From contig JACPLQ010000001.1 of assembly GCA_016186435.1 (NCBI GenBank), forward strand, positions 1-59,212: 59,212 nucleotides of DNA, read 5' to 3'. Under the pieces are notes generated by a model. The model did not search any database. It saw nothing but the letters and a program-made list of their open reading frames with translations, and had not been told where the DNA came from. This DNA is from Candidatus Nomurabacteria bacterium (GTDB lineage: Bacteria > Patescibacteriota > Minisyncoccia > Phycocordibacterales > UBA9973). The position numbers and the translations under genes are program-made. The first letter of the stretch is position 1. Each line of letters begins with the position of its first letter. Below, in pieces: positions 55,755-58,704 of the stretch.

Positions 55755-56051
55755 ATGAAACATGTGGGTAATAAAATTTTAGAATACAAAAAAGAGTTGG
55801 TGGAAACTTTTGCTAAAATTTTCGGAGATAAAAAGTTGATGGCCGAATTTTTGACAGACATTCTAACGCCGACAGAATTTGAGGCTCTAGCTTTAAGGTG
55901 GCAGATAGTTAAAAAACTTAAGAAAGGAGAAACCCATAGATCCATAGCGGAGGATTTGGGTCTTGGTATAAGCACAGTAACTCGAGGTTCTCGTGAACTT
56001 CGTAATAAAAATGGTGGTTTCCATTTAATGTTAAAGAAAATCGGTAAATAG
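55755..56051 (+). CDS. TrpR/YerC/YecD family helix-turn-helix protein
   Basis: LTPTEFEALALRWQIVKKLKKGETHRSIAEDLGLGISTVTRGSRELR. Confidence 0.8.
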   Translation: MKHVGNKILEYKKELVETFAKIFGDKKLMAEFLTDILTPTEFEALALRWQIVKKLKKGETHRSIAEDLGLGISTVTRGSRELRNKNGGFHLMLKKIGK

Positions 56052-56081
56052 ATAGTTAAAAAGTTATTCACAGTGCTACTC

Positions 56082-56109
56082 TTGCATTATATTTTGTATC
56101 TGCTACTAT
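56082..56109 (+). promoter_or_regulatory. promoter-like TTGCAT, 16 nt, TGcTACTAT
   Basis: Read directly from the sequence. Confidence 0.4.
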
Positions 56110-56153
56110 GTACTAGTACACGAATACAAGAGTATTTATGTATTGGATACTAT

Positions 56154-56234
56154 ATGAAAAATAATCTAAAAATGAATGTTTCAATGAAATCTTGGTGGAG
56201 CGCAAACACATATGTTTTTGCGTCTATCTTTTGA
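56154..56234 (+). CDS. candidate 26-codon leader peptide with tandem Trp codons
   Basis: Hand translation gives MKNNLKMNVSMKSWWSANTYVFASIF-stop. TGG TGG lies at 56093-56098 in a roughly 30 percent GC spacer. Confidence 0.4.
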   Translation: MKNNLKMNVSMKSWWSANTYVFASIF

Positions 56235-56272
56235 TTTCTCTTTACTGTCTAAACTAAAAAAGGAATCCAAAA

Positions 56273-56297
56273 ATCGGCGCAAGAGCGTCGATTTTTG
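56273..56297 (+). terminator. rho-independent terminator / candidate attenuator upstream of the ATP-grasp-like ORF
   Basis: atcggcgc-aaga-gcgtcgat followed by ttttt. Confidence 0.65.
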
Positions 56298-56352
56298 TTC
56301 TTTGTCATAAACAGTTATTTAACAAAACCCAGTCCTTAGGAGAGACTACAAA

Positions 56353-57636
56353 ATGAAAAATGAAGTAACCGTTAGTGCCCTTAACAGGGCACTTGAAATC
56401 CGAGACTACTGCAACAAGTTGCAGCTCGGATACGATCGGGCACCTGATTGTCATTTCTATGTCGGACCCGATTCGTTCAGACTCAGCGACAATCAGCTTG
56501 ATATTTTTGTCAATCAAGGCGAGCTGTTTCGTACATGGTTCGAGATTACACTCGAATTGTGTACTCGGGCTTACCGAGACGATAGCATGAGTTGGCTTGC
56601 TGATTTGATTGAGGGTGAATCCCCAGATCATGTCAGACAAGTTCACAGACAAGTCCATCTCTCGGGACTCCTCAACATTCCATTATTCGCTCGACCTGAT
56701 ATGTCGGCGATCGGTGCGAGTGTCGAGGTTCAAACACCTGGATCCGGATGGGGTTATCAGACCGCTATTCACAACATGGTCGGTAAATCCCGTTGGACAG
56801 GACCAATCAATGGACTCAAGCAAGCTGTAAAGGCTATGACTGGATCACACAGTACGCCATCGGCGTATGTGCTCTACAACGATCCGTTTTTCCCTGAAGT
56901 CGAGTATTTTTGTCGGCTTTGTGGAGAAGCAGGGATGCAACTTCAAATGCACTTCAAAACATTGCCGTCAGCCTCTGAGGTTAAGTTTGTTCGGCGGCCA
57001 CCTCTCGAAGACCTGCTGTCATACGAAGGTGGCTCGGAACTGGTTCAGTCTTGGTTAGACGGACAGTTGGTACTTGAACCCGGACCTAGTCTGCTGTTCG
57101 ATCAAAAGTTGGCGATTCTGTTTCCGTTTCATCCGCGTCTCAGGGAATTTTATCCTGACTCTGTCAGGCAACTTTTCCCCGAGACTTACTTGGTGGCAAG
57201 AGATAGTCGGCTAGTGTTTAACGGTAAGCCACTGAGTTTGGATGAACTGTCTAGTCTCTCGGGTTCAAAGAGACAGTTTATCCTAAAGTATGCAGGTGCT
57301 AAAAAAGGTCTGCGTGCTGGTGGCAAAGCGGTGTACAACCTTTCTGACTGCAATCATCAGAAGGTTCGGGAACTGCTCGTGATGGCTCTCGAGGACTGGG
57401 AAAAACATCGGTCGCCGTGGCTGATTCAGAAACGGGTACAGCAAAAATACCCAATCGTTTTTCTGGATCATGTTGCGGAGGAGATTCGAGAGGCGCAGTA
57501 CTATGCGCTTTTCCGACCGATGTACAGCTTTCTGCCAGACGAACCATCAGCGATCGTAGCTATGACAGCTCTCTTTCGGAAAGACTGGAAAGTGCATGGC
57601 TCAAGTGATGCCGTCACGCTGCCAGTTGAAGTTTAG
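56353..57636 (+). CDS. hypothetical protein, tentatively a glutathionylspermidine-synthase-like / circularly permuted ATP-grasp amidoligase
   Basis: LFARPDM..VEVQTPGSGWGY (pre-ATP-grasp-like), LLFDQKLAILFPFHPRLREFYP, and ILKYAGAKKGLRAGGKAV (compare VxKPxxGREG). Good SD aggaga. It is visibly higher in GC and uses different codons than its neighbours. Confidence 0.45.
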   Translation: MKNEVTVSALNRALEIRDYCNKLQLGYDRAPDCHFYVGPDSFRLSDNQLDIFVNQGELFRTWFEITLELCTRAYRDDSMSWLADLIEGESPDHVRQVHRQVHLSGLLNIPLFARPDMSAIGASVEVQTPGSGWGYQTAIHNMVGKSRWTGPINGLKQAVKAMTGSHSTPSAYVLYNDPFFPEVEYFCRLCGEAGMQLQMHFKTLPSASEVKFVRRPPLEDLLSYEGGSELVQSWLDGQLVLEPGPSLLFDQKLAILFPFHPRLREFYPDSVRQLFPETYLVARDSRLVFNGKPLSLDELSSLSGSKRQFILKYAGAKKGLRAGGKAVYNLSDCNHQKVRELLVMALEDWEKHRSPWLIQKRVQQKYPIVFLDHVAEEIREAQYYALFRPMYSFLPDEPSAIVAMTALFRKDWKVHGSSDAVTLPVEV

Positions 57637-57642
57637 TTCTTT

Positions 57643-57717
57643 GCGGGAGTAGCTTAATTCTAAAGCTAGGAGACTCCAAATCTTCTGATGAAGGTTAAAG
57701 TCCTTCCTCCCGTGCCA
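57643..57717 (+). tRNA. non-canonical tRNA-Trp(CCA) with encoded CCA
   Basis: Acceptor GCGGGAG/CTCCCGT, anticodon arm GGAGA-CTCCAAA-TCTTC, T arm GAAGG-TTAAAGT-CCTTC (no C56), D loop AATTCTA (no G18/G19). Confidence 0.6.
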
Positions 57718-57813: not shown

Positions 57814-58704
57814 ATGAAAGTAAAACAAATTAAAATTGATAAGAAAAATAAAATACCAGTTTATTTATTCGGCACAGAACCTAAGATTTTACTAATGGCG
57901 GGAGTTCATGGAGATGAAAAAACTGGTGTGGTAATTTTGAAAAAAATAATTAAGCAATTACAAAATAGTAAAAAATCCTACCCTGTCGCAATTATTCCTT
58001 GTGTGAATATGAGAGCATATAGAGATAGCTCAAGAATCAATCCGAAAGATAAAATTGACTTCAATCGTATTTTCCCTGTAATTAAAATTAAAAGTGAGTC
58101 TTACCAGATAGGCAAAGCAATTCAAGATTTTGCGGAAAAATTTACAATGGTCATTGATATTCATGTCTTCACAGGACAACACACATTAATGTGCGGAGTT
58201 GATTTAAATATATCTAAAGGTAAGATACAAAAAAATATTAAAGATATAATGTCACAAATAGGCATGGAAGCTATATGCAGAATCGATCATGCTAGCGAAC
58301 CAAAAAAAGACGGTTCTCTTTGTGCTTACTTGCAGCATAAAAAAGTATTGGCATTCGGCATAGAATTGCCACCCTCTGAAGTATTAACTAAAAATAATTT
58401 CGATACGATAAAAAATAATTTAATTGACTTAATAAAAGGTTTTCAAAAAAGAACCAAGATGCAAAAATTAAAATCATATATCAGACTCCCTGTTCTCAGT
58501 GAATATACTGGATTTTTTTCACCGAATAAAATTCCCGGACTTGAAGTTAAAAAGTACGATACTATCGGAAATATAACAGAAAAAAATCAACAAAAGCACA
58601 ATATAAACTCTCCGTTTAATGGCAGACTTATTTCGGTGAGTTATAAAAAATCTGTGAAAAATGGTGATAAACTATTTGTAATAGGAAAAAAGGTAAAAGG
58701 TTAA
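57814..58704 (+). CDS. succinylglutamate desuccinylase/aspartoacylase (AstE/AspA, M14-like) zinc deacylase with a C-terminal hybrid-barrel domain
   Basis: AGVHGDEKTG, NMRAYRDSSRINPKDKIDFNRIFP, DIHVF. The C-terminal SPFNGRLISVSYKKSVKNGDKLFVIG is lipoyl/hybrid-barrel-like. Confidence 0.7.
   Translation: MKVKQIKIDKKNKIPVYLFGTEPKILLMAGVHGDEKTGVVILKKIIKQLQNSKKSYPVAIIPCVNMRAYRDSSRINPKDKIDFNRIFPVIKIKSESYQIGKAIQDFAEKFTMVIDIHVFTGQHTLMCGVDLNISKGKIQKNIKDIMSQIGMEAICRIDHASEPKKDGSLCAYLQHKKVLAFGIELPPSEVLTKNNFDTIKNNLIDLIKGFQKRTKMQKLKSYIRLPVLSEYTGFFSPNKIPGLEVKKYDTIGNITEKNQQKHNINSPFNGRLISVSYKKSVKNGDKLFVIGKKVKG

What the first reader, a model, noticed from the sequence alone, without database searches (positions are those of the whole stretch)
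56082..56300. Candidate ribosome-mediated attenuator with tandem Trp codons
The spacer holds a short ORF, MKNNLKMNVSMKSWWSANTYVFASIF. Its adjacent TGG TGG codons (56093-56098) are statistically unexpected in roughly 30 percent GC DNA. Immediately after them, gcgcaaac (56100-56107) can pair with gtttttgcg (56114-56122). The following gcgtctat (56120-56127) resembles the 3' arm of the downstream terminator (gcgtcgat) and could pair instead with the terminator 5' arm atcggcgc (56273-56280). The leader stop codon (56132-56134) lies just past this segment. This is the 1:2 / 2:3 / 3:4 logic of trpL-type attenuation. Two weaknesses: segments 2 and 3 are about 150 nt apart, and the SD is poor.
Basis: inference. 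Interest (0 to 1): 0.6.

Follow-up and report, generated by a model that had tools for sequence, protein, structure and literature searches.

The report
Tryptophan leader-peptide attenuator in Nomurabacteria
The spacer holds a conserved tryptophan-sensing switch of the classic E. coli kind (repressor site, Trp-Trp mini-gene, switchable stop signal), found in an ultra-small uncultured bacterium that cannot make tryptophan, where it controls an uncharacterised enzyme gene and an extra tRNA-Trp.

Summary
Five coordinates in its text are 100 too low. The features are the leader ORF (56154-56234), TGG TGG (56193-98), the 1:2 hairpin (56186-56238) and the terminator (56268-56297). Segments 2 and 3 lie about 40-50 nt apart, not 150. 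A TGG TGG pair in a small ORF is not rare by itself. The case rests on conservation.

A covariance model finds the same leader in about 51 of 151 genomes of this Ca. Nomurabacteria genus. It finds none in 149 genomes of other families of the order. Among 51 distinct copies:
- 45 keep WW and all keep at least one W.
- 49 keep an in-frame TGA at the same column.
- 47 follow a TrpR-family gene and a promoter overlapped by a CTAG palindrome.
- At least 13 precede trpBA, trpE or trpD.

Three mutually exclusive helices (1:2, 2:3, 3:4) are supported by pairing counts, by covariation and by a four-way compensatory change in a relative.

This genome has no trpA or trpB. Here the switch precedes a glutathione-synthetase-fold ligase, a second tRNA-Trp and a deacylase. 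No Rfam family matches and no paper was found. The scan has noted the same kind of switch in at least 30 other CPR genomes. No transcript data could be obtained.

The parts
55755..56051 (+). TrpR-family repressor gene (98 aa)
   Evidence: Pfam PF01371 scores 68.6 bits against a cut-off of 27. It aligns to E. coli TrpR at E 8e-8, and the positions of Thr44, Arg54 and Arg84 are kept. TIGR01321 scores 50.6 bits, below its equivalog cut-off of 67.25. An orthologue lies directly upstream of 47 of 51 leaders.
56082..56109 (+). Promoter: -35 TTGCAT (56082-87), 16-nt spacer, -10 TACTAT (56104-09)
   Evidence: Read from the sequence. Both hexamers sit at fixed distances from the CTAG centre in 46 aligned loci. 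The expected start is about 56115-56118. This is inferred, not measured.
56108..56121 (.). Operator palindrome ATGTACTAGTACAC, CTAG-centred, overlapping the -10 box and the predicted start
   Evidence: TGTACTAGTACA occurs only twice in the 706-kb genome, and the other copy is inside a coding region. A CTAG palindrome sits at the same place in 46-47 of 51 loci. The likeness to the E. coli trp operator is from my own knowledge.
56154..56234 (+). Leader ORF of 26 codons, MKNNLKMNVSMKSWWSANTYVFASIF, with stop TGA at 56232-34
   Evidence: The N-terminus MKNN(L/F)K and the tail ..KSWWGA..AFALFC* recur in relatives. Loop indels of +9, +3 and -3 nt keep the frame.
56193..56198 (+). Tandem Trp codons TGG TGG (the regulatory codons)
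   Evidence: TGGTGG occurs in 45 of 51 distinct leaders, and the other six keep one TGG.
56186..56238 (+). Hairpin 1:2 (anti-antiterminator): GAAATC..GGTGGAGCGCAAA pairs with TTTGCGTCTATC..GATTTC. The Trp codons lie in its 5' strand and the stop codon in its 3' strand.
   Evidence: The fold gives -18.4 kcal/mol. Helix 21-29:47-55 is 93% paired and helix 8-13:64-69 is 81% paired over 51 sequences.
56214..56286 (+). Antiterminator 2:3: 56214-24 pairs with 56276-86, and the stretch 56226-38 (with GATTTC at 56233-38) pairs with 56262-74 (with GGAATC at 56262-67)
   Evidence: The nascent-RNA fold with the ribosome on the WW codons gives -19.7 kcal/mol. It is 94.3% paired across 51 leaders, against 23-43% for slid controls. 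Column pair 55/132 reads CG 22, UG 16, UA 11. L126 carries a four-way compensatory change.
56260..56304 (+). Terminator 3:4: core stem 56274-80:56285-91 (13 pairs in all, 56268-97), loop AAGA, T-run 56292-96. An outer helix joins AAGGAA (56260-65) to TTCTTT (56298-303).
   Evidence: The terminator scan found it. The fold gives -18.3 kcal/mol. 5 of 9 pairs show compensatory changes. GTTCTTTG follows the T-run in 38 of 51 leaders.
56353..57636 (+). First controlled gene: a 427-aa ligase with the eukaryote-type glutathione synthetase (permuted ATP-grasp) fold
   Evidence: It has no Pfam or NCBIfam match. The AlphaFold2 model has pLDDT 92.5. Foldseek matches glutathione synthetases at E 1e-11, TM about 0.6. 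The gene follows the same leader in L037 (94% identity) and L126 (65% identity).
57643..57717 (+). Second tRNA-Trp(CCA) gene, 6 nt behind the ligase gene, probably in the same transcript
   Evidence: ARAGORN and Rfam both call it. It is the only duplicated tRNA species in the genome. The arrangement is the same in L037 and L126. Co-transcription is inferred.

Best explanation
This is a ribosome-mediated transcription attenuator that senses charged tRNA-Trp. It is coupled to a TrpR-type repressor site, the same two-layer logic as the E. coli trp operon.

Initiation. The TrpR-family protein encoded just upstream binds the CTAG palindrome (56108-21). The palindrome overlaps the -10 box and the start site of the promoter at 56082-56109. 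With tryptophan bound, the protein blocks initiation.

The leader. Transcripts that do start carry a 26-codon leader ORF (56154-56234). Its two Trp codons (56193-98) lie inside the 5' strand of hairpin 1:2.

Low charged tRNA-Trp. The ribosome stalls on TGG TGG and covers segment 1. Segment 2 (56214-38) is then free to pair with segment 3 (56262-86) as soon as segment 3 is made. Segment 3 is the 5' arm of the terminator, so no terminator forms. RNA polymerase reads on into the ligase gene, the second tRNA-Trp and probably the deacylase gene.

Plentiful Trp. The ribosome runs to the TGA, which overlaps the GATTTC of segment 2, and covers segment 2. Without any ribosome, 1:2 forms. In both cases segment 3 pairs with segment 4 and transcription stops at the T-run near 56297.

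What is shown: the sequence features, their conservation, the mutually exclusive pairings and the link to trp genes in relatives. What is inferred: the transcription start, translation of the leader, stalling, termination and TrpR binding.
For: Anatomy in the window. The three structures have comparable stability (-18.4, -19.6 and -18.3 kcal/mol) and share strands.

Conservation: a pattern scan of 185,579 species genomes gave 32 true hits, all Patescibacteria or Ca. Nomurabacteria. Model R1 gives at least 50 bits in about 51 of 151 genomes of the genus.

Coding signature: 45 of 51 leaders have WW, 49 of 51 have an in-frame TGA at one column, and the loop indels keep the frame. The peptide tail is conserved while the N-terminal part varies in length and sequence.

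RNA signature: pair counts and controls. The inner terminator 5' arm GGCGCA is conserved while the outer pairs covary freely. A at column 132 goes with U at column 55 in 11 of 12 cases. L126 changes GGCGCA/TGCGCC to GGCACA/TGTGCC in segments 1, 2, 3 and 4 together and still folds into both states.

Context: a TrpR gene and operator lie upstream in 47 of 51 loci. trpBA, trpE, trpD or trpB2 lie downstream in at least 13 of 51. The Trp-binding residues of TrpR are kept.
Against:
- The Shine-Dalgarno is weak and is not conserved in the nearest relative, so the true start codon in this subgroup is uncertain.
- Covariation for 2:3 is modest because the strands are highly conserved. Most of the support is complementarity plus a few compensatory cases.
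- With the full leader present and the ribosome stalled, the minimum-energy fold still contains the terminator. The antiterminator must therefore win kinetically, as in other attenuators.
- Six of 51 leaders have a single W.
- A few relatives have a poor T-run (L006, L014).
- This genome has no trpA or trpB, so the physiological sense of Trp control here rests on genes of unknown function.
Confidence: 0.85

Rival explanations
1. The ORF is a small protein gene in its own right. It encodes a conserved 25-40 aa peptide ending ..KSWWGA..AFALFC, and the downstream hairpin is simply its terminator. Nothing downstream is regulated by it.
For: The C-terminal half of the peptide is conserved at the amino-acid level. 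Leader peptides with functions in trans are known, for example peTrpL of Sinorhizobium (abstract of PMC7298713). Several relatives have only small ORFs between the leader and aspS.
Against: Synonymous positions are as conserved as the others wherever they lie in helices. The GGC GCA third positions are nearly invariant and pair with segment 2. The conserved GGAATC box and the GGCGCA of the terminator arm lie outside the ORF and are complementary to its 3' end. The N-terminal half varies freely. The association with trp genes needs a cis effect. A trans role could coexist with attenuation.
Confidence: 0.04
2. The conserved RNA is a ligand- or protein-binding leader, riboswitch-like or bound by a TRAP-like or TrpR-like protein. 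The ORF is incidental.
For: Nucleotide conservation over about 120 nt is very high, and there are boxes (GGAATCC, GTTCTTTG) whose conservation exceeds what a hairpin alone needs.
Against: Every conserved box is accounted for by one of the alternative helices. The reading frame, the Trp codons and the stop position are conserved, and the indels keep the frame. There is no T-box or any other Rfam match. There are no GAG/UAG repeats of the TRAP kind.
Confidence: 0.04
3. The leader peptide senses Trp, but the output is not intrinsic termination. It is translational control or Rho-dependent polarity on the downstream gene.
For: Some relatives have a weak T-run after the 3:4 hairpin (L006, L014). 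The terminator stem extends into the T-run through pairing with an A-tract, which can weaken termination.
Against: In the window and in most copies a GC-rich stem is followed by TTTTTGTT. The ligase Shine-Dalgarno (AGGAG at about 56339-43) lies about 40 nt beyond the hairpin and is not sequestered in the folds.
Confidence: 0.06

Closest known systems
E. coli trp operon control region: TrpR operator plus the trpL leader-peptide attenuator (Rfam RF00513 Trp_leader)
   Same: A TrpR-family repressor acts on a CTAG-centred palindrome over the -10 box. A short leader ORF carries tandem Trp codons inside segment 1. The helices 1:2, 2:3 and 3:4 are mutually exclusive. An intrinsic terminator precedes the structural genes. 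The background is summarised in PMC7755916.
   Different: There is no sequence or model similarity: RF00513 is not among the matches even at E up to 10. The stop codon lies at the 3' end of segment 2 (overlapping GATTTC), not between segments 1 and 2. Both hairpins are bipartite, with outer helices 1a:2a and 3a:4a. The repressor gene sits directly upstream. In many relatives the leader ATG lies inside the operator, giving a probably leaderless mRNA. The cargo here is not a trp gene.
Bacteroid-trp leader (Rfam RF01692; Weinberg et al. 2010, PMC2864571)
   Same: It is a Trp-codon leader peptide RNA outside the Proteobacteria. It is the best Rfam match to the window, full-length over 56144-56267.
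   Different: The score of 29.1 bits is far below the gathering score of 49, with E = 0.3. Ten orthologous loci give no match at E up to 1. The match is likely driven by general leader-plus-hairpin features. This is a different phylum.
Chlamydia trachomatis trpRBA operon (trpR, intergenic region, trpBA)
   Same: The gene order is the same as in several Nomurabacteria relatives: trpR, an intergenic regulatory region with its own promoter, then trpB-trpA (PMC7755916).
   Different: In Chlamydia the annotated TrpL is 59 aa, lacks consecutive Trp codons, is unvalidated and is predicted to be a poor attenuator. Trp-dependent control goes through YtgR (PMC7755916). Here the leader is short and has WW and a clean three-helix design.

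Membership tests
Leader-peptide (ribosome-mediated) transcription attenuators of amino-acid operons | A short ORF in the 5' leader with clustered codons for the sensed amino acid | tested here: met
   The 26-codon ORF has TGG TGG. WW occurs in 45 of 51 relatives, and all keep at least one W.
Leader-peptide (ribosome-mediated) transcription attenuators of amino-acid operons | An intrinsic terminator between the leader ORF and the structural gene | tested here: met
   A 13-pair stem plus T-run lies at 56268-56297. 5 of 9 pairs show compensatory changes.
Leader-peptide (ribosome-mediated) transcription attenuators of amino-acid operons | An antiterminator that shares a strand with the terminator, and an upstream hairpin that shares a strand with the antiterminator, placed so that a ribosome on the regulatory codons frees segment 2 | tested here: met
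   Folds with and without ribosome masks. Pair counts are 94.3% and 89.7%, against about 40% for slid controls. This is computational only.
Leader-peptide (ribosome-mediated) transcription attenuators of amino-acid operons | Control of genes for the cognate amino acid | tested here: inconclusive
   Met in relatives: trpBA, trpE, trpD or trpB2 follow at least 13 of 51 leaders. Not met in this genome, which has no trpA or trpB. The cargo here is a ligase plus tRNA-Trp.
Leader-peptide (ribosome-mediated) transcription attenuators of amino-acid operons | Amino-acid-dependent read-through shown experimentally | not testable with these tools
Rfam RF00513 Trp_leader | A score at or above the family's gathering threshold | tested here: not met
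   RF00513 is not listed even at E up to 10.
Rfam RF01692 Bacteroid-trp | A score at or above the gathering threshold of 49 bits | tested here: not met
   The window scores 29.1 bits. Ten orthologous loci give no match.
T-box leaders (RF00230) | Specifier loop and T-box sequence, scored by the covariance model | tested here: not met
   There is no T-box match in 55950-56450 at E up to 10.
TrpR (Trp repressor) family | Trp_repressor domain above the Pfam threshold | tested here: met
   PF01371 scores 68.6 bits against a cut-off of 27.
TrpR (Trp repressor) family | Equivalog-level match to the trp operon repressor (TIGR01321) | tested here: not met
   It scores 50.6 bits against a cut-off of 67.25. 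It scores higher than on the YerC/YecD model, 34.1 bits.
TrpR (Trp repressor) family | Corepressor-contacting residues (E. coli Thr44, Arg54, Arg84) and a CTAG-centred operator | tested here: met
   The alignment to PDB TrpR chains keeps T, R and R at those positions, while Ser88 is Glu. The palindrome TGTACTAGTACA is at 56109-20. The residue roles and the E. coli operator are from my own knowledge.

The most novel reading that the evidence does not exclude
The attenuator is the sensor of an undescribed tryptophan-starvation response in an organism that cannot make tryptophan. It switches on a module of a glutathione-synthetase-fold ligase, a private second tRNA-Trp and an AstE/AspA-type deacylase. 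That module carries out some tRNA-Trp-linked or Trp-salvage chemistry.

The ligase-deacylase pair is conserved far beyond this genus. In one distant genome it sits behind a Tyr-codon (YYYAY) leader and next to a TyrRS gene. The pair may therefore come in versions specific for each aromatic amino acid.
Probability: 0.35. Interest if true: 0.8.

Novelty: new member of a known kind. Interest (0 to 1): 0.55.

Why it matters
**Mechanism in the CPR.** Classical attenuation needs translation coupled to transcription. A clean, conserved example implies that ultra-small CPR/Patescibacteria bacteria use this mechanism together with a TrpR repressor. I found no paper describing that, and the leader is in no Rfam family.

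**A functional label for unknown genes.** Whatever lies behind this leader is predicted to be switched on when charged tRNA-Trp runs low. In relatives that is trpBA, trpE or trpD. Here and in several others it is glutathione-synthetase-fold ligases, a second tRNA-Trp and a deacylase, in a genome with no tryptophan pathway. That makes the function of these gene families testable. It also bears on how an obligate symbiont copes with tryptophan shortage.

**Annotation.** The covariance model built here can annotate the element in metagenomes.

Tried and rejected
- **Rfam.** The gathering scan of the window found only tRNAs and RNase P. The permissive scan gave only sub-threshold matches. Ten orthologous loci gave nothing relevant.
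- **Wider distribution.** 149 genomes of other families of the order gave only eight matches of 30-35 bits. On reading they are plain terminators without a leader ORF.
- **A second TrpR target in this genome.** The only other copy of the palindrome lies inside a 599-aa gene on another contig, so I take it as chance.
- **Chance significance of WW.** It is not significant on its own, so I dropped it as an argument.
- **The 493-aa cargo protein of L074 and L081.** hhalign shows no relation to the ligase family, probability 1.6%.
- **P0018 context.** It came without DNA.
- **L123, a distant ligase homologue.** I saw no obvious leader upstream.
- **Literature.** Searches for CPR, Patescibacteria or Nomurabacteria combined with attenuator, leader peptide or tryptophan found nothing on this element.

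Full report
**Observation**

- The ORF MKNNLKMNVSMKSWWSANTYVFASIF runs 56154-56234.
- TGG TGG is at 56193-98.
- gcgcaaac is at 56200-07, gtttttgcg at 56214-22 and gcgtctat at 56220-27.
- The stop is at 56232-34.
- The terminator is at 56268-97, with 13 pairs, loop AAGA and a T-run.

The minimum-energy fold of 56185-56305 is a hairpin at 56186-56238 plus the terminator. Its z-score against shuffles is -6.8.

Segment 2 ends at 56238 and segment 3 starts at 56262.

The statistical argument for TGG TGG does not hold alone. The hexamer occurs 33 times in the window, and 3 of 367 small ATG-ORFs contain WW.

**Context in the window**

The upstream gene is a Trp_repressor family protein (PF01371, 68.6 bits). 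It aligns to E. coli TrpR and keeps the positions of Thr44, Arg54 and Arg84.

Between that gene and the leader lie:
- a -35 TTGCAT (56082-87);
- a -10 TACTAT (56104-09);
- the palindrome ATGTACTAGTACAC (56108-21), overlapping the -10 box and the predicted start.

That palindrome occurs only once more in the 706-kb genome, inside a gene.

Downstream lie the 427-aa ORF, a tRNA-Trp(CCA) 6 nt behind it (57643-57717) and an AstE/AspA-family deacylase gene. The tRNA-Trp is the only duplicated tRNA species in the genome.

**Conservation**

Fifteen orthologous TrpR loci of the same genus showed the same palindrome, a WW ORF, the same hairpin and a terminator.

A pattern scan of one genome per species (185,579 species) gave 53 stretches. 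Thirty-two of them carry the whole arrangement, and all 32 are Patescibacteria, mostly labelled Ca. Nomurabacteria. The rest are chance hits in unrelated genomes.

A covariance model built from 36 distinct leaders scores at least 50 bits in about 51 of 151 genomes of the genus. In 149 genomes of other families of the order it finds only matches of 30-35 bits, which are plain terminators. The window itself scores 120 bits at 56179-56302.

**Coding signature** (51 distinct leaders, alignment A3)

- 45 leaders have TGG TGG.
- The other six read TGG CGA (2), TGG CGG (2), TTG TGG (1) and TGG TTT (1).
- 49 have a TGA in frame with the Trp codons at the same column. It is the TGA of the conserved tTGAtttc, so the stop overlaps segment 2.
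- Loop indels of +9, +3 and -3 nt keep the frame. The one +2 case (L011) uses an earlier in-frame TGA that still lies within segment 2.
- The peptide tail (..KSWWGA..AFALFC) is conserved, while the part before it varies in length and sequence.
- In 21 of the 36 leaders examined, an ATG in the right half of the operator is in frame and open to the Trp codons. This suggests a leaderless mRNA in that subgroup.
- The window belongs to a subgroup that starts MKNN(L/F)K about 38 nt behind the predicted start, with a weak GGA as its only Shine-Dalgarno.

**RNA signature**

The structure 1:2 plus 3:4 has 89.7% of cells paired, against 37-53% when the partners are slid. In the terminator, 5 of 9 pairs carry compensatory changes.

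The alternative 2:3 structure joins TTTTGCGCY to GGCGCAA and GATTTC to GGAATC. It has 94.3% of cells paired, against 23-43% when slid. Its covariation is modest because the strands are conserved.
- Column pair 55/132 reads CG 22, UG 16 and UA 11.
- A at column 132 goes with U at column 55 in 11 of 12 cases.

The conservation is itself informative. The outer terminator pairs covary freely, while the inner 5' arm GGCGCA and the GGAATC box are nearly fixed. This is expected if they must also pair with segment 2. A conserved GTTCTTTG after the T-run (38 of 51) pairs with CAAGGAAT, so each conserved box has a partner in one of the states.

The relative L126 changes GGCGCA/TGCGCC to GGCACA/TGTGCC in segments 1, 2, 3 and 4 together. 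It still folds into the terminated state, and with a ribosome on WW into the antiterminated state.

For the window, masking the ribosome footprint on the Trp codons and folding the nascent RNA up to 56286 gives 2:3 at -19.7 kcal/mol. In that fold 56214-24 pairs with 56276-86. The 1:2 hairpin has -18.4 kcal/mol and the terminator -18.3 kcal/mol. With the whole leader present, the terminator is still in the minimum-energy fold, so the decision must be kinetic.

**Link to tryptophan**

A TrpR orthologue and operator lie upstream of 47 of 51 leaders. Downstream, within the DNA in hand, at least 13 leaders precede trp genes: trpB-trpA or trpB2 (9), trpE (3) and trpD (1).

Others precede:
- unknown proteins of 343-369 aa (4);
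- the 427-aa protein (the window and L037, plus L126);
- a 493-aa protein (2);
- an Asp-racemase-like gene (2);
- only small ORFs before aspS.

The locus looks like a fixed regulatory cassette (trpR, operator, leader) with variable cargo in front of aspS.

This genome (98.75% complete) has no trpA, trpB, trpD, trpE or trpF by tblastn with in-genus queries. It also has no TrpB or TrpA family match, but it does have trpS.

**The cargo here**

The 427-aa protein has 34 homologues, all unnamed and without Pfam domains. Its AlphaFold2 model (pLDDT 92.5, pTM 0.91) matches eukaryote-type glutathione and homoglutathione synthetases (E 1e-11, TM about 0.6) and glutathionylspermidine synthetase. It is therefore a circularly permuted ATP-grasp amide ligase. 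The 343-369-aa cargo family aligns with it over 337 columns (hhalign probability 57%, E 1e-4).

Homologues at 28-65% identity are again next to an AstE/AspA-type gene.
- L126 (65% identity) has the leader, the ligase, a tRNA-Trp 6 nt behind it, the deacylase and aspS.
- L124 (28% identity) has a promoter with a different palindrome, an ORF reading ..SSYYYAYL.. and a terminator in front of the deacylase-ligase pair. A TyrRS-type gene and a prephenate dehydratase gene follow.

**Comparison with what is known**

The logic is that of the E. coli trp control region, a TrpR operator plus trpL (background in PMC7755916). There is no sequence or model similarity. RF00513 does not match, and the best Rfam match, Bacteroid-trp (RF01692), reaches 29.1 of the 49 bits needed.

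The gene order trpR, regulatory spacer, trpBA recalls Chlamydia trachomatis. There the annotated TrpL is atypical and unvalidated.

I found no paper on such leaders in CPR bacteria. Notes of this scan report the same kind of switch in at least 30 other CPR genomes with varied cargo. I did not check those notes.

**Verdict**

It is a new sequence family and lineage of a well-known mechanism. The unusual point is what it controls here. No transcript evidence could be obtained.

Noticed in passing
window 57643-57717: A second tRNA-Trp(CCA) gene lies 6 nt behind the ligase gene. All other tRNA species in the genome are single-copy. The same ligase-tRNA-Trp arrangement occurs in L037 (94% identity) and L126 (65% identity).
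   Followed up: partly
window 56353-57636 and 57814-58704; L123, L124, L126: The glutathione-synthetase-fold ligase and an AstE/AspA-type (M14-like) deacylase are neighbours in all five contexts examined, down to 28% identity and in either order. They form a conserved two-gene module of unknown function.
   Followed up: partly
L124 1680-1905: A distant ligase/deacylase pair is preceded by a promoter with the palindrome ACTGTAATATACAGT, a short ORF reading ..SSYYYAYL.. and a terminator. A TyrRS-type gene and a prephenate dehydratase gene follow. This looks like a tyrosine version of the same arrangement.
   Followed up: no
window 56064-56072 (TTATTCACA); the same place in relatives: A DnaA-box-like motif lies between the trpR stop and the -35 hexamer in 33 of 51 loci. 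It is TTATCCACA in most relatives and one mismatch from that here. The genome holds 22 exact copies. Its role is unknown.
   Followed up: partly
L016 1800-2000 (genus relative): One relative has the TrpR gene and operator but a different leader: MGWSSLDDWWCLGL, with 3 W in 14 codons and a good Shine-Dalgarno, followed by its own terminator. It is a second, unrelated Trp leader type at the same locus.
   Followed up: no
L005, L008, L010, L017: In some relatives the operator-promoter sits directly in front of trpD, an Asp-racemase-like gene or (L010) an uncharacterised 223-aa ORF, with no leader. That gives repression without attenuation.
   Followed up: no
L032, L040, L082, just after the terminator: A second conserved hairpin (TTCGTTTCCTAGAGGRRACGGAAA) follows the attenuator terminator in three relatives. 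In several relatives, conserved small ORFs of 55-78 aa lie between the leader and trpB.
   Followed up: no
L016 2637-2786: There is a sub-threshold T-box match (52.4 bits, gathering score 93) upstream of the aspS gene that lies downstream of the trpR-leader cassette.
   Followed up: no
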